IMG/VR virus record: IMGVR_UViG_3300046047_000103
Reading direction: 5' to 3' (one strand)
Origin: a virus
Taxonomy: Duplodnaviria; Heunggongvirae; Uroviricota; Caudoviricetes
DNA: 64,000 nucleotides
In this document: piece after piece, positions 2,554-63,259 of the stretch
Layout: the number at the start of each line of letters is the position of its first letter
Position numbering within the stretch: the stretch's first letter is position 1
Made by a program: the position numbers and the translations under genes
The notes under the pieces: model-generated
Told to the model about the DNA's origin: nothing
Databases searched by the model: none
What the model saw: the letters and a program-made list of their open reading frames with translations, nothing else

Positions 2554-3345
2554 TTATTCTGATCTTGCCGTGGACGCATGATCCACGGTCAGTCCTAATC
2601 GTTCGATGCGGTCAATGATCTTACGGACTGTATCCAGCAGATCGTCCTCATCATGTCCATAGATCGTCGGCCATGCCGGATCGTTCGGAGGAATGCTCCA
2701 AATCTTGCGTCCGTAGACCGGCTCGGACATGGTCGGCCTCCGCCTACGATCCCTCGGCCGGACCATCTTACTCTTACCGTCGTACGGATCAGCCAGGAGC
2801 GAGATCTTCGGCCAGAACCTGCCAGATGCCAGCAGCCTGTGCCCGATCATGGAATAGCCGTCTGCTGAGATGACAGACCAGATAGCCTCGCCAAGTCTTG
2901 CCTTCACCGGCTGAGCATGGAACAGATCATCAGGGACGTCGAGCGCCCCGATGAAGTCTTCACTGACCGTCTCCGATGTCTTCATGGGAGCATACCGTGC
3001 TTTCACGATACTGCTCGCATCCTCCCACTGCTGCTTCGAGATCTTATCGGAGAGGACAGCGCTTGGTGCGATCCTCCTATACGATGTGATCGGTTCTGTC
3101 TTCAAGGTGAACGTGACCGTGAACTCATCTCCGGCATGGATAAGATCATCAGTGGCGGCATCATCCGCCGGAGCGAGCTTGACCATCCGTCCGTTCGGAT
3201 CGATGCCGGAGCCCCGCATGATGACAGTCCCGGCCGCATCGGTGACGGTCACGCTCTCATGCTTGTCCGCCTGTCTTCCAAGGATCTTGAACCCTCCGTC
3301 GACTGGCTTGAGGATCACCATCTTCCTGTCTTCACTTGCTGTCAT
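2554..3345 (-). CDS. hypothetical protein (start moved to MTASEDRK)
   Basis: The ORF track gives 2554..3411. An AAGGAGG RBS sits 7 nt before the internal ATG at 3345, which overlaps the TGA of the upstream gene. Confidence 0.45.
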   Translation of the reverse strand: MTASEDRKMVILKPVDGGFKILGRQADKHESVTVTDAAGTVIMRGSGIDPNGRMVKLAPADDAATDDLIHAGDEFTVTFTLKTEPITSYRRIAPSAVLSDKISKQQWEDASSIVKARYAPMKTSETVSEDFIGALDVPDDLFHAQPVKARLGEAIWSVISADGYSMIGHRLLASGRFWPKISLLADPYDGKSKMVRPRDRRRRPTMSEPVYGRKIWSIPPNDPAWPTIYGHDEDDLLDTVRKIIDRIERLGLTVDHASTARSE

Positions 3346-4081
3346 TAGACGCCTCCTTGCCGGATGGAACGATCGCGTCTGACAAGACCTCCAGCAGCCT
3401 GTCCCGTACATGATCGTAATCGACGTCGATCATCGTTCGGACGTCGACGCTTACCGTGTGAGGTCTTTCACCGTAGATGATCTCCTCAGGGTCGGACGGA
3501 TCCCTCCATATCTTCATTGATCCAGGATCATCATTCGATGGAGCGTCATACGCCGTCTCCCATGACGGATCGATCTGCTTCAAGATCGATCTCATAAGCA
3601 CGTATGCCGAGTCCCTAGGAACGATCACGATTCCGGTGTCTTGTCCCATGACCAGATCTGCGGTAGCGTCATCATCATGATCAACGGGGTCAAGCTTGTA
3701 TCCATTGCCATCAGATCGTATGGATCCGCGATGATCTAGAACCACTGTGATAATGTCCCCGTACTGGCTCGTGATCTTCGGGATCTTAGCAAGATCATCC
3801 ATGCTGATCATGAATCGTTCCCACCTGTCCTGGTGCGGATCGTCATCGAATCTTAGCAGGCGGGATGATCTCATGATGTCAGCATCACTAGAACCGTCGA
3901 GTCTTACCACTGATGGCAGCCTGAATATTCTTGCATTCAGATCTGTCGTCAGCGAGTAATGATACACTATCGCCCTCCCGTGCCATCCATACCAGTGGAG
4001 GACGAGTGTCTTGCTGTCTTTATCCATATGATCATGATATCTTAATCTCGCGATGAAAGCAAACGGATGCGCTGCTTTCAC
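3332..4081 (-). CDS. hypothetical protein
   Basis: 249-aa ORF, translationally coupled to the downstream gene. Confidence 0.45.
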   Translation of the reverse strand: MKAAHPFAFIARLRYHDHMDKDSKTLVLHWYGWHGRAIVYHYSLTTDLNARIFRLPSVVRLDGSSDADIMRSSRLLRFDDDPHQDRWERFMISMDDLAKIPKITSQYGDIITVVLDHRGSIRSDGNGYKLDPVDHDDDATADLVMGQDTGIVIVPRDSAYVLMRSILKQIDPSWETAYDAPSNDDPGSMKIWRDPSDPEEIIYGERPHTVSVDVRTMIDVDYDHVRDRLLEVLSDAIVPSGKEASNDSK

Positions 4082-4140: not shown

Positions 4141-4335
4141 ATGAAAGATCAATACTACAAGCCCCAGTATCACGGTGCTGCTGACAATGCGTACGTGGAG
4201 AGGTTCTGGAAAACTCGCGCGGAGTACCCGGTGACGCCCGCGCTCATTCTCGTCGGAGCTGATGAGAACACGCCGAATCCGGACATCAGCAATGATGCCC
4301 CTCAGGACACGGTGGTGTCTGATGAAGATCAGTGA
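4141..4335 (+). CDS. small hypothetical protein
   Basis: 64-aa ORF. Its stop overlaps the start of the next + gene. Confidence 0.35.
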   Translation: MKDQYYKPQYHGAADNAYVERFWKTRAEYPVTPALILVGADENTPNPDISNDAPQDTVVSDEDQ

Positions 4336-4855
4336 GATCATGGCGCGGCTCACGAGTGATGATCCGCAGCCAGGAACCGTCGAGTATGATCTCACCCATG
4401 CACTCACCGATGACGACATGCTTTACATCATGATAGAGCACCAGATGTATGACGAGCTCGCCATGATGACGAAGATCTTGAAGCGGATGGATGACAGGTC
4501 CCTTGACAGCACGATCGTGAAGGCTGAGATGGTCATGGTGAATGGTGAGCACGCCAGGAACATCGACTTCGTCTTGAATCTGCCGGGGCGGCTTGCCATT
4601 CCGTATCATCAGCTGCTCATGCTCCGGTTCCATCTCAGGAAGAGCGTCACCATCCCCCGGCTTGACTCCAACATGTGGACATTCCTGGAAGATCAACGAT
4701 CCATCGCCCAGATGAGCAATGAAGATCATATCGTCAAGATGATCGATAAGAGCGTCAGAATAGGCGATAAGATCGCCGCGCTGATAAGATCGCATCCAGG
4801 TGCTGTCATCATCGACAATGATGCGTCTATCGTCCCTCCTTCGAAGCTGTTCTAG
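4322..4855 (+). CDS. hypothetical protein (start at MKISEIMARL)
   Basis: The + strand ORF is preferred over the His-rich antisense ORF 4286..4879. The ATG overlaps the upstream stop (GATCAGTGAGATCATGG). Confidence 0.4.
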   Translation: MKISEIMARLTSDDPQPGTVEYDLTHALTDDDMLYIMIEHQMYDELAMMTKILKRMDDRSLDSTIVKAEMVMVNGEHARNIDFVLNLPGRLAIPYHQLLMLRFHLRKSVTIPRLDSNMWTFLEDQRSIAQMSNEDHIVKMIDKSVRIGDKIAALIRSHPGAVIIDNDASIVPPSKLF

Positions 4856-5290
4856 CGCAGAGGGTCTCGCCGCTGTCATGGCAGGAGTCGGTCAGAAGTC
4901 TAATCTGTTGAAGAAGAGCGATTCTGACAGTGAGTTCAAGGATTTCGAGGAGAAGATGAGCGACGGGTCGAAGACGACTCGCGGTAAGTAGTAAGCATGA
5001 TCATGGTTGCCGTCATCTTGTAGACAGACCATTCTGACTGATGCTGACGAGATTCGATGGGTGATGATCATACAGATCTGAACATGCTTGTCTACATGAG
5101 ATCTGAGGACGATGTAAGCATGATCCATGCGGGAGAGATTCTGAGACCCCGAAGACTTGATCGTCCACAAGATCGTATTCAGTGTCTCCCGATCTGAACA
5201 CCGTATTAAGATCTTCATCACGGTCATGGAGCCGACGATCTTACAGTCTGACCTCAAATGCTTTACCATCGTTCAACTATCGTCTGGAAT

Positions 5291-5322
5291 CGTTGAAAAG
5301 CTCTCTAGAACCGTTGAAAAGC
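5291..5322. repeat. Two exact copies of cgttgaaaagc (14-bp aaYcgttgaaaagc) spaced 21 bp apart
   Basis: Seen directly at 5291..5301 and 5312..5322 in a region that is probably non-coding. Confidence 0.6.
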
Positions 5323-5389
5323 GTCCTCAGAACGCGAAAATGGAAAAGGGCGAGATGGCAACGTTTAGAGTGTAACATGCGGAAGCATA

Positions 5390-5640
5390 TCCTAGGATAC
5401 ACCCGTCTGGGCCGACGGCGCTCGAGGGCCGGGGACGCAGGGTCAACGGGGTCTCGCCCGCACGATGCTACGGCCGCGCCGCGGAGCTCATCTTGACGGC
5501 CCGCCGGACATGATTCAATGATGCCACTGGTCCGGGGGAGCTTAAGGGCTTGCCGGTGGTCCGAGGCGCTCATGGTCTGTGGGATGGTGCAAGCAGGAGG
5601 ACGAGATGCAGGACGAGACGAGATAAGCAAGTGCATGATG
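5390..5640. other. GC-rich (~68% GC) non-coding island. Candidate structured RNA or DNA element.
   Basis: Only Arg/Pro-rich junk ORFs on either strand. Composition is sharply different from the flanks. Confidence 0.35.
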
Positions 5641-5724
5641 CAAGCAGGGTCTTAAGATCTCCATGATCTTGGTCTCAGAATGATCTCAGTCTTAACGATC
5701 TTAAGATCTTAATTCTTAAGGAAG

Positions 5725-5808
5725 GCAAGTCTTCGAGTCCGCGAGATGGAGGCAAGCAAGTCTATGGGTCCGCGTGGAGGGGTGAAGCGAGTCCATGGAT
5801 CCGCGGCG
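5725..5808. repeat. Three degenerate tandem ~27-28-bp repeats (iteron-like). They follow a GATC/CTTAAG-rich AT stretch at 5651..5720.
   Basis: aagtcttcgagtccgcgagatggagg / aagtctatgggtccgcgtggagggg / gagtccatggatccgcggcgtcttcc. Confidence 0.55.
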
Positions 5809-6107
5809 TCTTCCTTCATCATTGTCCATGGATTCGAGCGATCGTTAAGACTCTTCAAGATCTTATGGCTCCGAGCGATCATTGACCGCATGTGGATGAG
5901 ATCATGTGAAGACGTAAGATGATCTTGTGATCCCCATGATGAAGGCTCTGTCAAGCATGATGATGTCTTCAAGTTGCTCTCCAAGCGCGTCCATCCGGTG
6001 AACGATCTGTCAGCATGATGGGGAATGATGACAGCGTCTGCTGGCTCCGTATTGCCGCGCATCGTCATCATTCCAGATCTGTATTCCTGGCGTCGTCGCC
6101 TTATGAA

Positions 6108-6213
6108 TCGTTCTAACGCGCCTTAGACGCGAGATCTTTATGGCCGGTAAAAAAACGCATGCCGCGCAGGTTCTCACGTCTATGGCGTCACAGACTGCGT
6201 CTGAGGGGCATGC
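6108..6213. repeat. Large imperfect inverted-repeat element, copy 1. Both arms flank an A7 tract.
   Basis: The left arm ttctaacgcgccttagacgcgagatc and the right arm ggttctcacgtctatggcgtcacagactgcgtctgagg are mutual reverse complements. The segment gcatgcc...ggcatgc is nested inside. The right arm is 48/52 identical to 29501..29552. Confidence 0.65.
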
Positions 6214-6264
6214 GATGATGTTCTGTCGCCATTCCCGGTGAGATATGATGATCTGGCGGTGAGA

Positions 6265-7077
6265 TCAACCGTTCGTGACGATACTGCTCCGATTCTTCAC
6301 GACTTCAAGCATTCGATCCCTGATGGCTTCGACGGGCCATAGCATCTTCCTCCCATTGACCGTGATGATCTTACTAGCAGCACGAGCTTCATCATCCGTC
6401 ACAAGGATCCATGAGAGCTTATCGACTGTCTCCCGTCTGTTCTCATCTGGTGACAGTCTTTCGAATCCGTGGTCCCTATGGCCGTACACGATGAAAGCGC
6501 TGTCCAGGCCGGCTATCGTCTTCTCGATCCATACCTGACGGACATACTTGTGATACTTGTCAGGATCATCCCTCTTCATGTCGACGATGGTCTTGCGAGC
6601 ACCGGTCTTGACCTCGATGGCAGCAGTGGACTCATCGTTGAATCTTGCGACGCCGTCAAGACTTGCATGGATCTTACCGCCGTCTTCATCCGTGAGCAGG
6701 TAGTACGATTCGTCATTCCAGCTGTACTCGCCCGGCTGCAGAAGATCAACCGGGACGTCCTTTCCGGCAGATCTGATGCCCCAGTCTGAGGCCCATCGTT
6801 GAAGCAGCTGCGGCTCATACTCGTGGCCGAATCTGAAGATGCATGACAGGAAGGTAGCCGTCCCGTCCGGATGCACGAACTCGGGACTCTTGGAGTACTC
6901 GTCCATCGTCATGTGAGACTCATGCCATGTCTTCAGTCTGTCCACTTCAGCCAGATCGGTGGCACCTGGGGAGAGTTGACGATTCTTGTACCATCCGTCA
7001 AGATCATGAAAGAGCGTGAAGGTCACATCTTCCACGCTCGTCAGATTCGATCCGTAATGCTTATCATATGCTATCAT
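6265..7077 (-). CDS. YqaJ / lambda-Exo-like PD-(D/E)XK exonuclease (recombination)
   Basis: Motifs FRFGHEYEP and HASLDGVARFNDESTAAIEVKTGARK match the YqaJ-domain pattern (wG..Ep ... aSPDG ... EIKcp). Confidence 0.5.
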   Translation of the reverse strand: MIAYDKHYGSNLTSVEDVTFTLFHDLDGWYKNRQLSPGATDLAEVDRLKTWHESHMTMDEYSKSPEFVHPDGTATFLSCIFRFGHEYEPQLLQRWASDWGIRSAGKDVPVDLLQPGEYSWNDESYYLLTDEDGGKIHASLDGVARFNDESTAAIEVKTGARKTIVDMKRDDPDKYHKYVRQVWIEKTIAGLDSAFIVYGHRDHGFERLSPDENRRETVDKLSWILVTDDEARAASKIITVNGRKMLWPVEAIRDRMLEVVKNRSSIVTNG

Positions 7078-7195
7078 GATTCCATCGTAACGCTATGACG
7101 GTGATCTGGCAATTCAAGATCTGCACGCCCTGCCGGTTGCATTCCCGCCGATCATTGATTAGAATAGGGTACTACGATAGGATGACCGGCCATGG

Positions 7196-10045: not shown

Positions 10046-12250
10046 GTGAAGGGTATGATGGATCATATGAGAACAATGACTGATGAAGATGTGAAGAGGT
10101 ACCGGGCTGAGGCGCAGTCTGCGGTCGCGGATGGGCTAGATCCCCGCGCTTTGAACGCAGAGTTGAATATCTGGGGTGCTGGCAGGCATATCCAGTTCGA
10201 GCGTGATCTTGTGGCCGAGCAGTCTTACATGATCACTGATGTCGAGCCGAATGAGAAGCGGTTCCCGACCGAGCATGATCGTGTCCACTGGCTCGTGGAC
10301 AACGGATATTATGAGCACGATCTCGTAGACCTGTACACGGATGAGTTCATTGACCGCATCCATGGCCTGGGAAGATCCGAGTGGAAGGCGTTCGGATCGT
10401 TCATGGGCGTCTACAAGTTCTATCAGCAGTACGCGATGCGGACAGGTGACGGCAAGACGCATCTTGAGGATTTCGTGGAGCGTGCTGTCGCCACCGCTCT
10501 CAAGCTAGCGCAGGGTGATGAGGACTTCGCCACGCGGATCGCCCACGCGATCATCACGAGACAGTACCAGCCAGCTACCCCGACCTTCCTGAACGCTGGG
10601 AAGGTGCGCCGCGGGGAGTACGTGTCATGCTATCTGCTCCGCACCGAGGACAACATGGAGAGCATCGGAAGGAACATCAACTCTGCCCTTCAGCTATCGA
10701 AGCGCGGTGGCGGTGTAGCTCTTGGTCTGAGCAATCTGCGTGAGCAGGGCGCCCCCATCAAGGGCATCGAGAACCAGTCAAGCGGCGTAGTCCCGGTGAT
10801 GAAGATCTTGGAGGACTCGTTCAGTTACGCGAACCAGCTCGGTGCTCGTCAGGGCGCCGGCGCCGTGTATCTCCATATGAATCATCCGGACATCATGAGA
10901 TTCCTTGACACGAAGCGGGAGAACGCTGACGAGAAGATAAGGATCAAGACACTGTCCCTTGGGATCGTGGTTCCGGACGTGGCTTTCAGGCTTGCTCGCG
11001 AGAATGCGGACATGGCGCTGTTCTCCCCGTACGGTCTGCAGAAGTACTATGGTAAGGGTCTTGCTGACATCGGGGTGAGTGATCATTATGACGAGCTGGC
11101 CGCAGATCCGAGGGTCGTCGCTGGTCATGTGAATGTCCGCAAGCTGTTCACGACGATAGCAGAGCTGCAATTCGAGTCAGGCTATCCGTACCTCATGTTC
11201 GAGGATACGGTGAACAGGGAGAATCCGATTCCTGGGCGGATCGTGCAGAGCAATCTCTGCTCCGAGATCTTGCAGTCGCAAGAGCCGTCCGAGTACGATG
11301 AAGATCTGTCCTACAAGTCCGTCGGCATTGACGTGTCTTGCAACCTCGGATCGTTGAACGTCGCGCGGGCCTTCGAGTCCGGCGATCTTGGCGGCGTGGT
11401 GAACACGGCGGTGCGATCATTGACAGCAGTGTCTGAACTCACTGATGTCGGCTCAGTGCCGTCACTCAGGAAGGCGAATGACACGAGGCATACGATCGGT
11501 CTTGGCGAGATGAATCTGCACGGATTCCTCATGAGTCACGGACTAGCATACGGTTCGCCCGAAGCGCTTGAGTTCGTGGACGCATACTTCCGCACCGTCT
11601 CGTACCATGCGATCTTGACGAGCAACAAGCTAGCGATCGAGCGTGGTGAACGCTTCCAGGGGTTCGAGGAGTCCGGGTACGCTGACGGATCATACTTCGA
11701 CAGATTCACTTCAAGAACGCGGGACTTCAAGTATGACGCTGTCCGCAGGCTGTTCGATGAGTACAGGGCGACTGTTCCCACGGTGGATGACTGGAACAAG
11801 CTAAGGGAATCCGTGATTGAGCATGGCATCTTCAATGCATATCTGCAGGCAGTGCCTCCAACTGGAAGCATCTCGTACATCAACGGATCAACATCATCGA
11901 TCCATCCCGTGGCTGCTGCCATCGAGATCCGTAAGGAGGGTAAGACCGGTAGGGTGTACTATCCGGCGTACGGTCTTACCGATGAGAACGTGAATGAGTA
12001 CAAGGATGCGTACCAGATCGGCCCTCGGGCGATCATCGACACGTATGCGGCCGCGCAGCCTTACGTGGATCAGGGCATGAGCCTCACGCTGTTCTATCCT
12101 GATACGGTGACGACTCGAGACGTGGTGAAGAATTACATCTACGCGTGGAGTAAGGGCGTGAAGACGCTGTACTACATGAGGCTTCGCCAGGCTGCTCTTG
12201 ACGGCACTGAGGTCGATAACGTGAGCGAGTGCATAAGTTGTCAATTATAA
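10046..12250 (+). CDS. nrdE: ribonucleotide reductase class Ib alpha subunit
   Basis: 734 aa with no ATP cone. Active-site NLCSEI, PTGSISYI, and a C-terminal CISC pair. Follows nrdI. Confidence 0.9.
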   Translation: MKGMMDHMRTMTDEDVKRYRAEAQSAVADGLDPRALNAELNIWGAGRHIQFERDLVAEQSYMITDVEPNEKRFPTEHDRVHWLVDNGYYEHDLVDLYTDEFIDRIHGLGRSEWKAFGSFMGVYKFYQQYAMRTGDGKTHLEDFVERAVATALKLAQGDEDFATRIAHAIITRQYQPATPTFLNAGKVRRGEYVSCYLLRTEDNMESIGRNINSALQLSKRGGGVALGLSNLREQGAPIKGIENQSSGVVPVMKILEDSFSYANQLGARQGAGAVYLHMNHPDIMRFLDTKRENADEKIRIKTLSLGIVVPDVAFRLARENADMALFSPYGLQKYYGKGLADIGVSDHYDELAADPRVVAGHVNVRKLFTTIAELQFESGYPYLMFEDTVNRENPIPGRIVQSNLCSEILQSQEPSEYDEDLSYKSVGIDVSCNLGSLNVARAFESGDLGGVVNTAVRSLTAVSELTDVGSVPSLRKANDTRHTIGLGEMNLHGFLMSHGLAYGSPEALEFVDAYFRTVSYHAILTSNKLAIERGERFQGFEESGYADGSYFDRFTSRTRDFKYDAVRRLFDEYRATVPTVDDWNKLRESVIEHGIFNAYLQAVPPTGSISYINGSTSSIHPVAAAIEIRKEGKTGRVYYPAYGLTDENVNEYKDAYQIGPRAIIDTYAAAQPYVDQGMSLTLFYPDTVTTRDVVKNYIYAWSKGVKTLYYMRLRQAALDGTEVDNVSECISCQL

Positions 12251-15896: not shown

Positions 15897-16043
15897 TGTC
15901 CGATAAGCATTGGAATAACAGTAGGGCATTCTCAGTCAATGGACGCGATCTGATTCCAGATGACAAGTAGCTCTTCAAGTTGCATCCGTCGCAGATCTGC
16001 GATATTTTAGTAACGTCAAGTAATCTTATAGGGAGGAAATTCC

Positions 16044-22995: not shown

Positions 22996-23057
22996 TTTTG
23001 CAAAGCCCGTGATCTTTTGATATGATCGTATCATGTTCAATATGAGAGGAGCAGTGA

Positions 23058-27904: not shown

Positions 27905-28003
27905 TCATCCCTCTGACTGATTGCAGGTTGGATTCAAGCGATGGTACAATGATCATTGCATCATGTCCATATGGAATGATCCATCGATCTACAAGGAGTT
28001 TAA

Positions 28004-29407: not shown

Positions 29408-29432
29408 TCATTCAGATCTGATGTGATCTCAC

Positions 29433-29475
29433 AATGGCGTCATAGAAATCAATCTATGACGCCATTCTCGTATTC
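29433..29475 (+). terminator. Rho-independent terminator-like hairpin after the flotillin gene
   Basis: aatggcgtcatag-aaatcaat-ctatgacgccatt gives a 13-bp perfect stem, followed by a T-rich run. Confidence 0.55.
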
Positions 29476-29555
29476 AGATCTGCCATGCAAAAAAAACACG
29501 TACCGTGCAGGTTCTCACGTCTATGGCGTCACAGATTGCGTCTGATGGGCATGCC
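29474..29555. repeat. Inverted-repeat element family, copy 2. A8 tract plus the right arm.
   Basis: caaaaaaaacacgtaccgtgcaggttctcacgtctatggcgtcacagattgcgtctgatgggcatgc. 48/52 identical to copy 1, in a different reading frame. Confidence 0.65.
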
Positions 29556-29975
29556 AGGTATCCGTGCGGCAATGATCGTCGTCCGATCGTCGTTCTAACT
29601 CCGGATAGATCAGATCTGCATTGCCGGCGATATCTTAACCGTATGGATACTATCGTCGTACATGTTGAAGATCATGATTACAAGTGCTTGGTGGACAATG
29701 CTCTCGGAAGGGTCGTATTCAAGCTCAAGAATGGAGTGATCTTTGACAGCAGTGAAGATCTGTTCAGTAGGATGATCACGGATGATCTTAATGAAGACGA
29801 GAAGAAGTCGGAAGATGAGATACTGTCCGTCTTATCCAGGTTAGCTGAGATCGATTCAGATCTGTCCATCAGTGTAAGCGATACGATCTTACAGCATGAT
29901 GACGATGAGGACGATCTGCCAGCACGCGGTGACTATCACGGATCTGGGTTGCTGATAGGGTCGGATTGGGAATGA
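29505..29975 (+). CDS. hypothetical protein. The 5' end overlaps the repeat element, so the true start may lie downstream.
   Basis: 156-aa ORF. Its first ~17 codons are repeat-element sequence. Confidence 0.35.
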   Translation: MQVLTSMASQIASDGHARYPCGNDRRPIVVLTPDRSDLHCRRYLNRMDTIVVHVEDHDYKCLVDNALGRVVFKLKNGVIFDSSEDLFSRMITDDLNEDEKKSEDEILSVLSRLAEIDSDLSISVSDTILQHDDDEDDLPARGDYHGSGLLIGSDWE

Positions 29976-30024: not shown

Positions 30025-31083
30025 CTACTTCTTCTTAGATCTGCGATACGTTCGCGGCTTCGGGGGATTCTGCTCCCAGATCGTCTTCACATCGTCAAGC
30101 GTGATCGTACGCGGATCGTTACCATCAGGAAGCGAGATGAACTGGGCTCGTCCCTTCGGTGTCTTCTTGAACCCGATCCATGGACCCCGCTTACCGATGC
30201 CAGTGAAGTAGCCCTCACCGATCTGTCGGGGAAGCTTGATCTCGCTGAACAGCTTGCTAGCAGCATCGAATGTGATCGTGTTCTCATCGTATCCATCTGG
30301 TATCGTCATGTTCACGGGCTTCGCGCTCTTCACCGGTGCGCCCTTCGTGTTCAGCTTCACGGCTTGCACGTATGCGCCGTACTTACCGCTCTTCGCCGTC
30401 AACTGGTAGCCAGCGTACGGACCGTCAGACAGTACTCCAAGAACATGATTCACGATCGGCTTCGCGTCGGCTAGCAGCTTCTTGCAAGCATTCGGGGATA
30501 GGGCGTCTTCACTGGTGAGAGCATCATCGTCCAATCTCACGCTCTTCACGTACCCGTCATCATTCTTCTGACCCGACGGATCTTCCAGCCATGCTCCTGC
30601 CTTGTTCACTCTCACCACGTACCCGCCGTTCAGATGGATCTCGGACAGCGTGTTGACCTCATCCCAATTGATGTTCTTGGCAAGTCCGTTCACCTTGCGG
30701 TCAATGCCGTCGGATCCCTTCCACGCCGTGTCCAGGAACTCCTTCAACGTGATCTTCCCGGACGCGATGTCGTCAAGCTGATCTTCCATGTGAGCGGTGA
30801 AGCCGTAATCAATGAAGTCGGGCATGGTCGCATCCAAGATCTGCGCGACCTTCATGCCGGTCCATGTCGGGACCATGGCCTTACCCTTCTTCTGGACGTA
30901 CCCGCGCTTCTGGTTAACGGTGACAAGATTCGCATACGTGGATGGCCGGCCGATGCCAAGCTCTTCCATCTTGGCGACCAGCTGCGGTTCCGTGTACCGT
31001 GGTGGCGGGGTAGTCGTATGGGTCTGTGGAGAGGCGTTCGAGATCACACACTCTTCCCCGACCTTGAAGTCATAGTCTGTCAT
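30025..31083 (-). CDS. topA: DNA topoisomerase IA, C-terminal cistron
   Basis: PPPRYTEPQLVAKMEELGIGRPSTYANLV. Its ATG overlaps the upstream TGA (TGATG) and is preceded by AGGAGGG. Confidence 0.8.
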   Translation of the reverse strand: MTDYDFKVGEECVISNASPQTHTTTPPPRYTEPQLVAKMEELGIGRPSTYANLVTVNQKRGYVQKKGKAMVPTWTGMKVAQILDATMPDFIDYGFTAHMEDQLDDIASGKITLKEFLDTAWKGSDGIDRKVNGLAKNINWDEVNTLSEIHLNGGYVVRVNKAGAWLEDPSGQKNDDGYVKSVRLDDDALTSEDALSPNACKKLLADAKPIVNHVLGVLSDGPYAGYQLTAKSGKYGAYVQAVKLNTKGAPVKSAKPVNMTIPDGYDENTITFDAASKLFSEIKLPRQIGEGYFTGIGKRGPWIGFKKTPKGRAQFISLPDGNDPRTITLDDVKTIWEQNPPKPRTYRRSKKK

Positions 31084-32504
31084 CAGTCCCTCCTACCGTC
31101 GTCATAGACCTTCAGGAATCCTGGGTCATCTATTCTTGTACTTGCCGTCGTGAAGACAGCCTTGCCGTCAGTTGACGTGATCGTGATCTTCTTCGTCACT
31201 CCACGGGCCGGATCCATCTGACTGGCCACGCTTCTCCTATAGACAAGATCGTACACGTCCCCGGCCTTGTCGTCGAATGCTGATCCGCCCGTCATCCTAC
31301 GGATCTTGGATGGGGCATAGAACACCCCGGTCGCCTCATCGATCACGGGACGGATGCATTCATGGCCCTCCTGCGCGTTCTTCGACTTTGACTTGTAGAC
31401 AATGGGCTTTGCCGGCATCTTGCCTCCATACTGCTTCCTGATGATAGCCCTGGCTGCATTGATCGCCTCGCTGGCCATTGCCGGGCTGTCCGTCCTGGAG
31501 TACGTCTGGTACGTGTGCTCGAAGAGCTGCTGGGCGATCGTCATAGATCTGCTTGCGGACAGTCCTAGCAGGCTTCCAACATTCTGCTGGTATGATGACG
31601 TGGTGTACGGGACGGGTGGACGTCTGGCGTACGGTCGTTCCGTGATGTCCGTGATCGTGTACGCTAATGTCTTCAAGTCGCTGACGGCCTGTTGCAGATC
31701 TTTACCTAGAAGGACGATCTTCCCCTTGTTCTTCAGCTTGCCGTCAGCCGTGAAGTCGCCGGATCCAGCCATCTTCCTGCCATTCCATTCGACGAGTGAC
31801 GCTGTGATCTCATTCGGTCTGCCTTCATTGAAGACAGCGTCAATAGATCCGTACTCTGATGGGATGAATCTGATCCGCTCCTTCTCCCGGTCGACCACGA
31901 GACGAAGCGCCGGACTCTGCGCCCTGCCGCCGGACGTTCCTGACCCTACGGTCTTCCAGAGGTACGGGCTGACGCTGAATCCGAAGAGACGATCATACTC
32001 CTGACGGGCTTGTGCAGACTGTGCTTTCAAGGTGTCCACAGATCCGTACGCTTCAAGTCCGGCAAGCACGGCCTTCTTCGTGATCTCATGCCATGATGCT
32101 CGCCTGACATCCATGTGCTGCTTCTTCAGATCGTTCTTAAGCGAGTCGGCCACCTCGTATCCGATGAGTTCGCCGGCTTCATCAGGGTCAGTGCTGACAT
32201 AGAAGTGCTTCCAGCGGCCAGATCTGACCGCATCCCTGATCTCATTCCATTGCTTCCTGTTCTGCGGATCGTGGTCAAGCAGCCGATCATAACTGCCATC
32301 ACTGACATTGATCGAGTATGATCCGTAGATCTGCTTCTCATCCTTGGAGAGCTTCTTCGGATCCTTCAGCTCGAACATGAATCCCTTGGTAGGCATGATC
32401 AGCCATTTGGATCCCAGGAATCCGGAGATCTCCCTAGCCTTCGTCGGTGACTCTACGATCATCAGACCGCCGTCGCTTAGTATCGTTTTGATGTCATCAC
32501 TCAT
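31083..32504 (-). CDS. topA: DNA topoisomerase IA, N-terminal cistron (Toprim plus catalytic Tyr)
   Basis: IVESPTKAREI, DPDEAGELIGYEV, SGRAQSPALRLV and QTYSRTDSPAMAS (catalytic Tyr). Confidence 0.85.
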   Translation of the reverse strand: MSDDIKTILSDGGLMIVESPTKAREISGFLGSKWLIMPTKGFMFELKDPKKLSKDEKQIYGSYSINVSDGSYDRLLDHDPQNRKQWNEIRDAVRSGRWKHFYVSTDPDEAGELIGYEVADSLKNDLKKQHMDVRRASWHEITKKAVLAGLEAYGSVDTLKAQSAQARQEYDRLFGFSVSPYLWKTVGSGTSGGRAQSPALRLVVDREKERIRFIPSEYGSIDAVFNEGRPNEITASLVEWNGRKMAGSGDFTADGKLKNKGKIVLLGKDLQQAVSDLKTLAYTITDITERPYARRPPVPYTTSSYQQNVGSLLGLSASRSMTIAQQLFEHTYQTYSRTDSPAMASEAINAARAIIRKQYGGKMPAKPIVYKSKSKNAQEGHECIRPVIDEATGVFYAPSKIRRMTGGSAFDDKAGDVYDLVYRRSVASQMDPARGVTKKITITSTDGKAVFTTASTRIDDPGFLKVYDDGRRD

Positions 32505-48498: not shown

Positions 48499-48577
48499 TT
48501 TGATGAACGATCTGTGATTCTGTAAATAAGTTGCATGAATCCAGATTATGTGGTATAGTGAATTCTGTAAGGTTCGC

Positions 48578-48785
48578 GGCCATGTCGGAGAGTTCTTCTA
48601 CTCGCATAAAATCAATGCTCCGGCGCCTTCCACGATCTTCAGTAGTGATAATTGAATGAGGCCATCTGCAAGAGTTCTTCTCTTTTCATAGGATAAAAAA
48701 TGCTTGCAGGCTTTCCTCTATTCTTTTTGATCGTATTGGGGCGGTGGTCAGGAATGGCCATCGCCTTTTTCATACGATAATGATC
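48578..48785. promoter_or_regulatory. Three direct repeats of a ~40-bp motif (GGCCAT..TTCTTCT..TCATA.GATAA) upstream of the 837-aa ORF
   Basis: ggccatgtcggagagttcttctactcgcataaaatcaatgc / ggccatctgcaagagttcttctcttttcataggataaaaaatgc / ggccatcgcctttttcatacgataatgatc. Confidence 0.55.
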
Positions 48786-48795
48786 AGGAGGACAT

Positions 48796-53580: not shown

Positions 53581-53672
53581 CATCAGACGCATTCTAACGC
53601 GCCATAGACGTGAGATCACCAATGGTGTGAGTAAAAAAACGTGGTTGCGGTCAAGCGCGTTAGAAGGGCGTT
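53581..53672. repeat. Inverted-repeat element family, copy 3. It lies between convergent genes and probably acts as a bidirectional terminator.
   Basis: catcagacgcattctaacgcgccatagacgtgagatc...gtaaaaaaacg...cgcgttagaa. The ttctaacgcg/cgcgttagaa pair is a perfect inverted repeat. Confidence 0.6.
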
Positions 53673-54455: not shown

Positions 54456-54572
54456 TTACGATGATGTGGTCATCGTGCGCACAGATTGATTCCATCGTAA
54501 CATAATGAGGTCAGAACGGAACCTTGTTGCAAGATCTTCGATCTGTTGATACTATAGGGTTATACCGTCTAT

Positions 54573-57850: not shown

Positions 57851-57950
57851 ACCGCGCTATACGATGTTGCCGTCATGGTCGCACGATGTTATAATAGATG
57901 CATATCTTGCATACGGAAGACAAGATCATGTACCTAGGAGGACGAGGTAA

Positions 57951-60522: not shown

Positions 60523-61401
60523 TCAGAACGTGAACACGATCTTGAGTCTGCAGGTGTCAAGCAGCTTCAGATTGTATGAGAGACGATCGATGTCTGACAG
60601 CATGGACTGCAACGATCTGCTGCTACCGAGTCTGGATAAGATCATGCCTTCAGGTGAGATCACCCATTCAGGATGCTGCGCGTCTTGATGGTCGAAGATC
60701 TTGGGCTTCCTGCCGATCCATGCAAGAGCTGGCTTCATAGATGCGGACAGGTTGAGGACAGCGTCAGACCACGCTTCAGCATAAGCGGTCTTCACGCCCT
60801 CCTTCCTCAGATCGTTCCAGGTGATGTCCTCATTCCTGATAGCATCATAGATCCCGACACTTACCGTCTTATGAATGATCGTGCTGTCCTTACTGATCCC
60901 CTCCGACCATGACGCGATCTGCTCCAGTCCACCCGAGTACAAGCCCATACGATCGAGTTCACCGTCTGATGAGACGCTCCGGACGTCTGACCACCATTCG
61001 GGTCTGCGCATGATCGAATCTGCGGAAGGCCTCCATATGGGCTCGAAGATCAATGGTTCTCCAGATCTGTGATGATCCCGCACCATGCGGATGAGTCGCA
61101 TGCTGATGAGCGCGCGGGCTGACGACATCTCCTGGGATGCAGGTGTCCGCAGTGTCTTCATGACCGGGGGATCAGTCTTGTCATGATCTTCCAGCCAGGC
61201 CACGGCTGCATTCTTGTCCGTCCAGTGTCTCATGGGCTTCCCGTTCTTATCCCTATGATTACGGCACTGCTTCGGGTCTTTCGCATAGCATTTCTCAAGA
61301 CGTCCATCAGATATGACCCAGGAGATCTTCGACATGGTATGAAGATATGCAGATCTGGGCTCTTGTAGGATGCGGACAAGACCTGGCGGCGATGATAGCA
61401 T
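60523..61401 (-). CDS. Cys/His-module family protein
   Basis: VISDGRLEKCYAKDPKQCRNH. Confidence 0.45.
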   Translation of the reverse strand: MLSSPPGLVRILQEPRSAYLHTMSKISWVISDGRLEKCYAKDPKQCRNHRDKNGKPMRHWTDKNAAVAWLEDHDKTDPPVMKTLRTPASQEMSSARALISMRLIRMVRDHHRSGEPLIFEPIWRPSADSIMRRPEWWSDVRSVSSDGELDRMGLYSGGLEQIASWSEGISKDSTIIHKTVSVGIYDAIRNEDITWNDLRKEGVKTAYAEAWSDAVLNLSASMKPALAWIGRKPKIFDHQDAQHPEWVISPEGMILSRLGSSRSLQSMLSDIDRLSYNLKLLDTCRLKIVFTF

Positions 61402-61523
61402 CTACGGCCACCGGGTACGTCTGGACTCTCGTGGACACGCCGGCTAAGTAAGATCATAAAAAGTTTTTTGGCTACGGGTCTCAACGTTTAGAGCATATCT
61501 GCAAAAGATCTTCCTGATAGATG

Positions 61524-61552
61524 TTGCATTCATGCTAGCTCCGTGATATATT
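61524..61552 (+). promoter_or_regulatory. sigma-70-like promoter (TTGCAT, 17-nt spacer, TGaTATATT)
   Basis: Read directly from the sequence. Sits in an AT-rich region upstream of repeat copy B and the tRNA cluster. Confidence 0.4.
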
Positions 61553-61651
61553 ATCTATTGTATTTGAAAGTTAAACAACTTGAATACAAGTTCGGGTTGA
61601 GCACCGTGTTACAGACGGAACGCTCCTGGCGTCCGAGAGGCGTCAGTCAAA

Positions 61652-61738
61652 CCCCTGCTAGTAATCAGGGTTGACGTGAACGAGGATTCTCGGTAACGGC
61701 GACGGGTTTAACCAAGAATAACGGTTACTAGCAACTGT
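61652..61738. repeat. ~87-bp leader-like repeat, copy B
   Basis: About 88% identical to 4..90. Confidence 0.7.
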
Positions 61739-61779
61739 CAACGTTCATAGGGAACGCTACTGATAAGGAACTGGAGGTC

Positions 61780-61929
61780 ATGATGGCAGCATTGCGTACA
61801 GTCAAATCAATGCGGTCGGCTCTTCAGGGCCAGTGGCCGCTTCAATCAGCTATGGATTATCAGCGCCTGAGTAGCGCAACGGCGTGCCTGATTAAGCATG
61901 TCTTTAATCCAGCGAGGATGATTGCGTAA
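61780..61929 (+). CDS. possible small ORF (48-49 aa) downstream of repeat copy B
   Basis: GGAGG RBS and ATGATG start. A terminator follows immediately. Confidence 0.25.
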   Translation: MMAALRTVKSMRSALQGQWPLQSAMDYQRLSSATACLIKHVFNPARMIA

Positions 61930-61952
61930 CGTTGTAGATCTGTGGAAACAGA

Positions 61953-61992
61953 AACGGCGCAATCTTATCACGGGGATTGCGCCGTTCTTTGT
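61953..61992 (+). terminator. Rho-independent terminator-like hairpin
   Basis: aacggcgcaatc-ttatcacggg-gattgcgccgtt gives a 12-bp perfect stem, then ctttgtatctg. Confidence 0.55.
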
Positions 61993-62015
61993 ATCTGTCA
62001 CATAATTGAAGATTA

Positions 62016-63069: not shown

Positions 63070-63146
63070 GCTTTCATGGCCCAATCGGCAGAGGCGCAGG
63101 GCACACTGCAGACCTGTTCATACTGGTTCGACTCCAGTTGGAAGCA
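63070..63146 (+). tRNA. tRNA-like element with a non-canonical anticodon region (possible pseudo- or unusual tRNA)
   Basis: Good acceptor (gctttca/tggaagc) and T arm (actgg-ttcgact-ccagt), and a D arm of the Leu/Ser type (ccaatcggcagaggc). No 5-7-5 anticodon hairpin can be drawn; the best fit is gcagg-gcacactgcaga-cctgt with a 12-nt loop. Confidence 0.3.
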
Positions 63147-63259
63147 CGCAGTATCAGTAGGCTATGAGCTGGCAGCGTGACGCAAGTCATCTTGGTTATC
63201 TGTGACCACCAGCGAGCTGAATGCAATAGCAGACGGGTGAGTGCAAGGCTCACCATCAT

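What the first reader, a model, noticed from the sequence alone, without database searches (positions are those of the whole stretch)
4860..6260. 1.4-kb gene-poor control region (candidate replication origin)
Between two coding blocks only low-quality Arg/Pro-rich ORFs exist. Instead the region carries: (i) aaYcgttgaaaagc twice with 21-bp phasing (5288..5322); (ii) a 250-bp, ~68% GC island; (iii) a 70-bp stretch with six GATC and three CTTAAG palindromes in AT-rich context; (iv) three tandem ~27-bp iteron-like repeats (5725..5808); (v) inverted-repeat element copy 1. Phased direct repeats, an AT/GATC-rich unwinding-type segment and iterons together are the classic anatomy of an origin or a major regulatory hub.
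Basis: inference. Interest (0 to 1): 0.55.

Follow-up and report, generated by a model that had tools for sequence, protein, structure and literature searches.

The report
Repeat-rich non-coding gap, possible replication origin
A roughly 1-kb stretch without genes in a very large, orphan phage-like genome carries two arrays of evenly spaced DNA repeats beside an easily melted AT-rich block and a GC-rich island, which looks like a replication origin, but nothing available here can prove that it is one.

Summary
The observation mostly holds. Positions 5198-6264 are the largest stretch of the 64-kb window with no coding signal, and they lie between two converging genes. The stretch contains:
- a 21-bp phased array (5266-5349);
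- the window's highest-GC segment (5396-5620, 67.6% GC), which has no GATC and holds the window's only G-quadruplex motif;
- one of the window's four least stable duplex blocks (5649-5728), the only one of them without a promoter;
- the window's only three-copy tandem array with a period of at least 15 bp (31 bp, 5716-5811).

There are five GATC, not six. The GATC cluster is not special, because GATC is 4.6-fold over-represented across the whole genome. Inverted-repeat element "copy 1" belongs to a dispersed terminator-like family found at gene 3' ends.

The anatomy matches an iteron-type origin (iterons, AT-rich unwinding block, GC-rich segment). However, there is no initiator gene, no DnaA-box cluster and no strong promoter, and no relatives exist for comparison. 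The strand-independent GC-skew component is positive to the right and about zero to the left, which fits an origin here but has too little data behind it. I put origin at about 0.35. The rivals are another protein-binding site, a non-coding RNA, or non-functional or foreign spacer DNA.

The parts
4322..4855 (+). Left flanking gene, 177 aa, an orphan of unknown function. Its 3' end faces the region.
   Evidence: Coding score 90. No Pfam, PHROGs or PDB match. Only four weak remote relatives among 1.84 billion representative proteins. AlphaFold model unusable, pLDDT 35.
4878..5197 (+). Two doubtful small ORFs (4878-4991, 37 aa; 5057-5197, 46 aa), plus exact 12-mers GTAAGCATGATC at 4991 and 5114.
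   Evidence: Called as genes on Logan contig L002. Weak coding scores of 23 and 10, and no Shine-Dalgarno sequence. No family match. 12-mer repeat is family D8.
5266..5349 (+). Array of four 21-bp phased units. The two central units carry the exact core GAAYCGTTGAAAAGC (5287-5301, 5308-5322).
   Evidence: Tandem Repeats Finder: period 21, 89% matches. Exact copies occur only here in the window. Three- and four-copy in-phase identity is 0.64 and 0.59. Units are printed.
5345..5650 (.). GC-rich island with no GATC (core 5396-5620, 67.6% GC). Contains 16-bp direct repeats at 5522 and 5551 and GCAAGCAGG repeats at 5584-5648.
   Evidence: Highest-GC 200- and 250-bp stretch of the window. The GATC-free gap 5237-5656 (419 bp) is the third longest in the window; the two longer gaps lie in the tRNA cluster. 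Repeat families D15 and D16. Tetranucleotide composition is about 4 SD from the window mean. RNA fold z-scores are +1.1 on both strands. No Rfam match.
5426..5451 (+). G-quadruplex motif GGGCCGGGGACGCAGGGTCAACGGGG.
   Evidence: The only G3+N1-7 x4 motif on either strand of the 64-kb window.
5649..5728 (.). AT-rich block of overlapping palindromes, a candidate DNA unwinding element. It has five GATC, three CTTAAG, two TCTTAAGATCT, and 10-bp palindromes at 5698 and 5702.
   Evidence: 34% GC. Third or fourth least stable 40-80-bp duplex block of the window, in the top 0.06-0.17% of positions. Highest density of inverted k-mers in the window, top 0.1%. No promoter-like site here.
5716..5811 (+). 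Three tandem 31-bp units (iteron-like), each with GCAAGyrAGTC followed by yATGGrTCCGCG.
   Evidence: The only three-copy in-phase array of period 15-60 at 68% identity or more in the window. Ten shuffles gave one hit in total. The 23-nt consensus with up to 3 mismatches is found only here, against 0 expected.
5822..5885 (+). Two further half-units (GTCCATGGATTCGAGCG and a CTTATGGCTCCGAGCG-type copy), 31-32 bp and then 37 bp downstream.
   Evidence: Family D11, 84% identity, spacing 37. Phased print-out.
5688..5852 (.). Perfect 13-bp inverted repeat (AGTCTTAACGATC at 5688-5700, GATCGTTAAGACT at 5840-5852) bracketing the 31-bp array.
   Evidence: Pair I13, 100% complementary, 139 nt between the arms.
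6100..6214 (-). Inverted-repeat element ('copy 1') with a hairpin and a T7 run on the minus strand. Probably the terminator of the YqaJ-like gene, and not part of the repeat core.
   Evidence: Terminator-like hit at 6167-6155. Copies at 29490-29554 (91%) and 53585-53672, all at gene 3' ends. One compensatory G-C to A-T change in the small hairpin between copies 1 and 2.
6265..7077 (-). Right flanking gene, a YqaJ/RecE-like recombination exonuclease. Its 3' end faces the region.
   Evidence: Pfam PF09588, E = 1.3e-5. phrog_434 RecE-like exonuclease. Its promoter-like site lies at 7112-7084.

Best explanation
The core at 5266-5885 is most likely a DNA-level (cis-acting) site where a sequence-specific protein assembles in multiple copies on phased repeats. 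The most likely role is an iteron-type replication origin of this roughly 350-kb phage-like element.

Proposed mechanism (inferred, not shown): an unidentified initiator binds cooperatively to the three to five 31-bp units at 5716-5885, all on one face of the helix. This stress melts the adjacent AT-rich palindromic block (5649-5728). The GC-rich island (5345-5650) acts as a barrier that limits melting to one side. The element's own primase, clamp loader and topoisomerase then build forks. The 21-bp array (5266-5349) would be a second binding or control array.

Shown here: the region is non-coding, the repeats are unique and phased, duplex stability is extreme, and the setting is convergent with no promoter. 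Inferred: protein binding, melting and replication initiation.
For: - It is the largest non-coding stretch of a densely coded window. It lies between converging genes, where only terminators would be needed.
- It holds the only three-copy tandem array of period 15 bp or more in 64 kb, and a second phased array 370 bp away.
- The periods of 21 and 31 bp equal two and three helical turns. Cooperative initiator binding to iterons needs such phasing (PMC4980987, read).
- The AT-rich block is among the four least stable duplex segments. The other three coincide with the best promoters, and this one does not.
- The order GC-rich segment, AT-rich block, iterons matches what plasmid-origin finders score: iterons plus an AT-rich region, with GC-rich regions also marked in their output (PMC12230664; PMC4980987).
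- The strand-independent GC-skew component is +0.02 (all positions) and +0.044 (third codon positions) to the right. It is -0.01 and 0.00 in the 4.8 kb to the left.
- The neighbourhood is DNA metabolism: a RecE-like exonuclease, dNMP kinase and NrdI/NrdE, with primase, clamp loader and topoisomerase further along.
Against: - No initiator or any DNA-binding protein could be identified next to the arrays, whereas iteron origins normally sit beside or inside their rep gene.
- There is no DnaA-box cluster, only one 8/9 match.
- The repeats are degenerate (65-74% identity), and Tandem Repeats Finder missed them.
- GC skew in this genome mainly follows gene strand. The left flank is too short for the apparent switch to be significant.
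- There are no relatives, so there is no evidence of conservation.
- The GATC argument is void, because GATC is enriched genome-wide.
Confidence: 0.35

Rival explanations
1. The region is a cis-acting protein-binding site with another role: a partition (centromere-like) site, a packaging (pac) or terminase-recognition site, or a silencing or nucleoid-organising site. Phased repeats recruit a multimeric protein, but DNA synthesis does not start here.
For: The same anatomy applies: unique phased arrays and palindrome-dense DNA. Public k=31 assemblies from several samples break at exactly 5343. That could reflect a physical DNA end, a repeat or a polymorphism at the edge of the arrays. GATC-dense, AT-rich pac sites are known in phage P1 (from my own knowledge).
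Against: No ParA/ParB, terminase or integrase family was found in the flanking genes. The 349.7-kb source contig reads straight through position 5343. The GATC density is simply the genome background.
Confidence: 0.2
2. The region is non-functional spacer: decayed gene remnants and/or a recently acquired foreign GC-rich fragment, plus the terminators of the two converging transcription units. The repeats are leftovers of local duplications.
For: The GC island is the compositional extreme of the window. It lacks the genome's signature GATC, as recently acquired DNA would. Assemblies break exactly at its left edge, which fits a presence/absence polymorphism. The repeats are degenerate. The right end is a dispersed terminator-like element.
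Against: The rest of the window is tightly packed, with the next largest gaps at 300-480 bp, so 1 kb of junk would be unusual. The repeats keep helical phasing. The AT-rich block is an extreme in duplex stability without being a promoter. Outside the island, GATC density equals the genome average.
Confidence: 0.2
3. The GC-rich island (about 5345-5650, plus strand) is a non-coding RNA gene or a long structured 3' UTR. The 21-bp array is its promoter/operator region.
For: The only other comparably long GATC-free stretches of the window lie in the tRNA gene cluster. A weak promoter-like site, TTGAAA-16-GAAAAT at 5314-5341, ends just before the island. The plus strand is G-rich, with skew +0.20.
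Against: There is no Rfam match even at E = 10. Folding energy is worse than shuffled sequence on both strands, z = +1.1. The promoter match scores 9, against 12-13 for the genome's real promoters. No plus-strand terminator follows.
Confidence: 0.15
4. The region encodes ordinary small proteins that codon statistics miss, for example 5229-5375, where the 21-bp repeat would be a heptad repeat (IVEKLSR/TVEKRPQ), or 5709-6071 on the minus strand.
For: ORFs exist. A 21-bp period equals seven codons. Gene callers called 4878-4991, 5057-5197 and 4892-5269(-) on public contigs.
Against: Per-codon scores are zero or negative, against 0.3-0.5 per residue for real genes. There are no Shine-Dalgarno sequences and no family matches. 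ORFs 5709-6071 and 5277-5636 are not on record as called genes anywhere.
Confidence: 0.07

Closest known systems
Iteron-type theta origins of plasmids and phage-plasmids (RK2 oriV, P1 oriR, pSC101, R6K gamma ori)
   Same: Several direct repeats in helical phase lie next to an AT-rich unwinding element. RK2 oriV is also described as having a GC-rich segment (from my own knowledge). In P1 oriR the AT-rich part carries clustered GATC (from my own knowledge). Iteron number (2-7) and the need for helical phasing are described in PMC4980987.
   Different: The units here are 31 bp long and 65-74% identical, whereas classical iterons are 17-22 bp and nearly identical. There is no adjacent Rep gene, no DnaA boxes and no sequence similarity to any PLSDB plasmid. 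The host element is a roughly 350-kb phage-like genome.
Phage and satellite origins with repeats in non-coding DNA (lambda ori, SaPI ori, PLE NCR3 of Vibrio cholerae)
   Same: These have repeats bound by an element-encoded initiator next to AT-rich DNA. In PLE the iterons lie in a non-coding region and are needed for replication (PMC7145576). In SaPI, two repeat sets flank an AT-rich segment (from my own knowledge).
   Different: In those systems the initiator gene is adjacent to or overlaps the origin, and function was shown experimentally. Here no initiator is known and nothing has been tested.
Transcription-primed (R-loop) origins: T4 ori(uvsY)/ori(34), T7 primary origin, ColE1
   Same: A G-rich transcribed-strand segment (skew +0.20, unique G4 motif) lies directly upstream of an easily melted block.
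   Different: These origins need a promoter. Only a weak match (9 points, against 12-13 for real promoters) precedes the island.
P1 pac site
   Same: Clustered GATC in short AT-rich DNA (from my own knowledge).
   Different: The GATC density here is the genome-wide background. No terminase gene was seen nearby.

Membership tests
Iteron-type theta replication origin | Two or more direct repeats (iterons) in helical phase | tested here: met
   Three full and two half units at 31, 31, 31-32 and 37 bp. This is the only such array in the window. A second 21-bp array is present. The units are more degenerate and longer than classical iterons.
Iteron-type theta replication origin | Adjacent AT-rich DNA unwinding element | tested here: met
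   5649-5728 is 34% GC and is the third or fourth least stable block of the window. It abuts the first 31-bp unit. Actual unwinding was not tested.
Iteron-type theta replication origin | Cognate Rep/initiator gene beside or overlapping the origin | tested here: not met
   The flanking genes are an orphan 177-aa protein and a YqaJ-like exonuclease. No Rep, winged-helix or initiator family appears in Pfam, PHROGs or PDB searches of eight neighbouring proteins. An unrecognisable initiator cannot be excluded.
Iteron-type theta replication origin | Host DnaA boxes (present in many, not all, members) | tested here: not met
   There is one 8/9 match in the region. The window holds 13 matches against 11.9 expected.
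Iteron-type theta replication origin | Supports autonomous or initiator-dependent replication; peak of marker frequency; skew switch | not testable with these tools
   Only 64 of 349.7 kb is available, and no reads. The partial skew decomposition is compatible but not significant.
Transcription-primed (R-loop) phage origin (T4/T7/ColE1 type) | Promoter directing transcription into the unwinding element | tested here: inconclusive
   The best match in the region is TTGAAA-16-GAAAAT, scoring 9, while promoters upstream of genes score 11-13. Promoters specific to a phage RNA polymerase could not be modelled.
Known structured RNA family (Rfam) | Covariance-model match | tested here: not met
   No hit at gathering threshold. 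The permissive scan returned only chance-level hits, E of 1 or more.
Partition site or pac site | Adjacent ParA/ParB or terminase genes | tested here: not met
   No such families were found in the neighbouring proteins scanned.

The most novel reading that the evidence does not exclude
In a genome saturated with GATC and CAGATCTG palindromes, a 419-bp island free of GATC and carrying the window's only G-quadruplex motif abuts a GATC-dense unwinding block and 31-bp iterons. Together these would form a new kind of origin for a huge actinobacterial phage. A methylation-free, G4/R-loop-forming segment would prime or license initiation, and an unrecognised initiator family would read three-turn iterons.
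Probability: 0.05. Interest if true: 0.7.

Novelty: new member of a known kind. Interest (0 to 1): 0.35.

Why it matters
Replication origins of huge phages and other very large extrachromosomal elements are almost all unmapped, and their initiators are unknown. A defined 600-bp candidate gives a concrete fragment for marker-frequency analysis, protein pull-down and origin-function assays. That could uncover the initiator of an orphan lineage, possibly one infecting Bifidobacterium-like hosts. If the fragment is not an origin, it is still the one place in this window where a sequence-specific multimeric DNA-binding protein should be sought.

Tried and rejected
- Known RNA: Rfam at gathering and permissive thresholds found nothing. 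MFE z-scores are +1.1 on both strands.
- Hidden protein genes: Pfam and PHROGs on all ORFs of the region gave nothing. Exact-protein look-up of ORFs 5709-6071 and 5277-5636 found neither on record.
- Comparative genomics:
  - blastn against INPHARED and PLSDB gave no match.
  - Flanking proteins against IMG/VR gave none.
  - The metagenome scans (an exact 30-mer, and a YqaJ alignment) gave none.
  - Searches of 5.8 billion proteins returned only the query itself, plus one 44%-identical YqaJ relative on a 5-kb contig that ends at the gene.
- A double-repeat pattern searched in IMG/VR gave two hits, both coding VEK repeats, so they are chance matches.
- Initiator hunt: AlphaFold on the 177-aa neighbour gave pLDDT 35. 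HMMER over 1.84 billion representatives gave four weak, unannotated relatives. PDB sequence searches gave nothing.
- DnaA boxes: no cluster.
- GATC as an origin signal: rejected, because the enrichment is genome-wide in both coding and non-coding DNA.
- Palindrome richness: high (top 1% for 600-bp windows) but not unique.
- Megaplasmid identity: there are no plasmid relatives, while PHROGs ATPase and primase hits point to a phage.

Full report
**Context.** The window is part of a 349,703-bp JGI metagenome contig. Its genes are phage-like and centred on DNA metabolism:
- NrdI/NrdE, a dNMP kinase and a YqaJ/RecE-like exonuclease;
- a topoisomerase IA, a Toprim primase and a pol III gamma/tau-like clamp loader;
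- a CCA-adding enzyme, a PHROGs ATPase (E = 2.5e-98) and seven tRNA genes.

The element has no DNA relatives among INPHARED phages or PLSDB plasmids. Searches with the proteins flanking the region found no relatives in IMG/VR or the JGI metagenome contigs. Weak hints point to a Bifidobacterium-like host. NrdE is at best 62% identical to Bifidobacterium. The YqaJ-like protein hits only eight Bifidobacterium phages, at 26-28% identity.

**Is the region really non-coding?** I trained a codon-usage model on 20 long genes. Flanking genes score +0.3 to +0.7 bits per codon in their own frame. From about 5200 to 6264 no frame is positive.

With greedy gene calling, the window is densely packed and this is its largest uncalled stretch. 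Two of them are not on record as called genes anywhere.

The left 340 bp (4856-5197) holds two small ORFs that gene callers did call on public contigs. They have weak scores and no Shine-Dalgarno sequence, unlike most genes here.

The flanking genes converge. 4322-4855 is on the plus strand and the YqaJ-like gene 6265-7077 is on the minus strand. The region is therefore a 3'-end zone, not a promoter zone.

**What the region contains.** From left to right:
- 5266-5349: four 21-bp phased units. The two central units carry the exact 15-mer GAAYCGTTGAAAAGC, which occurs nowhere else in the window.
- 5345-5650: a GC-rich island.
  - Its core, 5396-5620, is 67.6% GC, the maximum of the window.
  - It carries the only canonical G-quadruplex motif of the window on either strand, at 5426-5451.
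  - It sits in a 419-bp GATC-free gap (5237-5656). This is the third longest such gap in the window, and the two longer ones are in the tRNA cluster.
- 5649-5728: a block that is 34% GC and made of overlapping palindromes (TCTTAAGATCT twice, CTTAAG three times, two 10-bp palindromes). It ranks third or fourth for lowest nearest-neighbour duplex stability in 40-80-bp windows.
- 5716-5811: three tandem 31-bp units, followed by two half-units 31-32 and 37 bp further on.
- 5688-5700 and 5840-5852: a perfect 13-bp inverted repeat that brackets the 31-bp array.
- 6100-6214: an inverted-repeat element with a hairpin and a T7 run on the minus strand.

**Is this more than chance?** I scanned the whole window for three in-phase copies at periods of 15-60 bp and at least 68% identity. 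The scan returns only 5716-5808. Ten shuffled windows gave one hit in total.

At looser thresholds, the only non-coding, non-tRNA arrays of period 15 bp or more are this one and the 21-bp array. The region is in the top 0.1-0.5% of the window for inverted k-mers and the top 1-6% for direct k-mers.

The three other least stable blocks (61.5, 33.7 and 48.5 kb) coincide with the best promoter matches. Those matches are of the TTGCAT-N17-TATAAT type, which I found upstream of many genes. The region has no match above 9 points, against 11-13 for the real ones. The AT-rich block is therefore the one extreme low-stability segment that is not a promoter.

- The tandem period is 31 bp, not 27.
- There are five GATC, not six.
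- GATC cannot be used as an origin signature in this genome.
  - The window has 1143 GATC, 4.6 times expectation, in coding and intergenic DNA alike.
  - In coding sequence there are 1007, against 656 ± 20 after synonymous-codon shuffling.
  - Local clusters of five to seven per 100 bp are therefore common.
- 'Inverted-repeat element copy 1' belongs to a dispersed family, with further copies at 29.5 and 53.6 kb. All copies lie at gene 3' ends. One compensatory base-pair change occurs in the small hairpin before the T-run. It is best read as the terminator of the YqaJ-like gene, not as part of an origin.

**Tests of the origin idea.** In favour:
- The order GC-rich segment, AT-rich block, phased repeats is the anatomy of iteron-type origins.
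- Iteron number, length range and the need for helical phasing are described in PMC4980987.
- Origin-finding software scores exactly iterons plus AT-rich regions (PMC12230664).
- A phage-satellite origin with iterons in non-coding DNA is documented in PMC7145576.
- I split GC skew into a gene-strand term and a strand-independent term. To the right of the region the strand-independent term is +0.02 (all positions) and +0.044 (third positions). In the 4.8 kb to the left it is -0.01 and 0.00. This is what a nearby origin predicts, but the left sample is far too small to be significant.

Against:
- No initiator was found. The adjacent 177-aa protein is an orphan with no usable model. Other neighbours have no informative matches.
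- There is no DnaA-box cluster.
- The repeats are degenerate.
- Conservation cannot be assessed.

**Rivals.**
- An RNA gene in the GC island would explain the absence of GATC, as in the tRNA cluster. But Rfam is silent. Folding is no better than shuffled sequence. The upstream promoter match is weak and no terminator follows.
- A foreign or decaying insert would explain the compositional extreme.
- It would also explain a curious fact. Public k=31 assemblies from several samples end at exactly 5343, the left edge of the island, and resume at 6162.
- The 6162 break falls in the dispersed repeat. The 5343 break is unexplained: it may be a repeat elsewhere in the genome, a polymorphism, or a physical end. 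I could not resolve this, because the exact 30-mer is absent from the searchable metagenome collection.
- A partition or packaging site would use the same anatomy, but lacks the partner genes nearby.

**Verdict.** The most economical reading is a DNA-level protein-assembly site. I rate an iteron-type origin at about 0.35, ahead of the other readings, none of which is excluded. If it is an origin, it is a new member of a known kind, with unusually long three-turn, degenerate iterons and no recognisable initiator. Interest is moderate.

Noticed in passing
whole window 1-64000: GATC occurs 1143 times, 4.6 times expectation, or one per 56 bp. It is enriched in coding DNA, intergenic DNA and all codon phases. 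In coding sequence there are 1007, against 656 ± 20 after synonymous shuffling. AGATCT is 10.9-fold over-represented. The 8-bp palindrome CAGATCTG occurs 43 times against about 1 expected (29 in coding sequence, against 2.9 after shuffling). It is three times denser in intergenic DNA, often just after stop codons. This resembles the hyper-abundant HIP1 palindrome of cyanobacteria. CTAG, AATT, TTAA and TATA are depleted three- to four-fold. No methyltransferase was seen among the proteins scanned.
   Followed up: partly
window 6100-6214, 29430-29560, 53585-53672: A dispersed family of inverted-repeat elements. The core is TCTCACGTCTATGGCG...TGCGTCTGAKGGGCATGC, next to an A7-8/T7-8 run. All three copies lie at the 3' ends of genes. 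One compensatory pair occurs in the small hairpin between copies 1 and 2. The family is probably terminators or 3'-end elements.
   Followed up: partly
window 5343/5344 and 6161/6162; also 62/63: Logan k=31 contigs from several sequencing runs are 100% identical to the window but stop at exactly 5343 (two different contigs) and restart at 6162. Another contig starts at 63. The 5343 break is unexplained: a repeat outside the window, a polymorphism of the GC island, or a physical end.
   Followed up: partly
window 30025-32504 (minus strand): The topoisomerase IA appears split into two adjacent ORFs. 31083-32504 carries Toprim plus the N-terminal part of the Topoisom_bac domain. 30025-31083 carries the end of that domain (profile positions 299-410) plus the C-terminal repeats. 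The two ORFs meet at position 31083.
   Followed up: no
window 63070-63147: ARAGORN reports a tRNA of undetermined identity with a four-base anticodon (actg) within the seven-tRNA cluster. Rfam scores it at only 36.5 bits.
   Followed up: no
window 7137-7165, 15980-16008, 22998-23026, 27921-27950, 33780-33752, 48531-48559, 54527-54555, 57867-57895, 61524-61552: Clear host-type promoters with -35 TTGCAT/TTGCAA/TTGCCG, a 17-bp spacer and a TATAAT-like -10 sit upstream of genes and of the tRNA cluster. The element therefore seems to rely on a sigma-70-type host polymerase for many genes.
   Followed up: partly
window 10046-12250 and 6265-7077: Host hints. NrdE is at best 62% identical to Bifidobacterium species and 60% to Cellulomonas. 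The YqaJ-like exonuclease has tblastn hits only to eight Bifidobacterium phages. A roughly 350-kb phage of a Bifidobacterium-like host would itself be unusual.
   Followed up: partly
window 48499-48795 and 61336-62015: These are two other non-coding stretches that are strong compositional outliers (lowest GC, top tetranucleotide distance). Each carries one of the best promoter matches. They are useful for comparison with the region studied.
   Followed up: no
window 2554-3345 and 3332-3967 (minus strand): Two adjacent orphan proteins look paralogous at their C-termini (KIW..P.DP...IYG... motif, by eye). Neither matches any family or solved structure.
   Followed up: no
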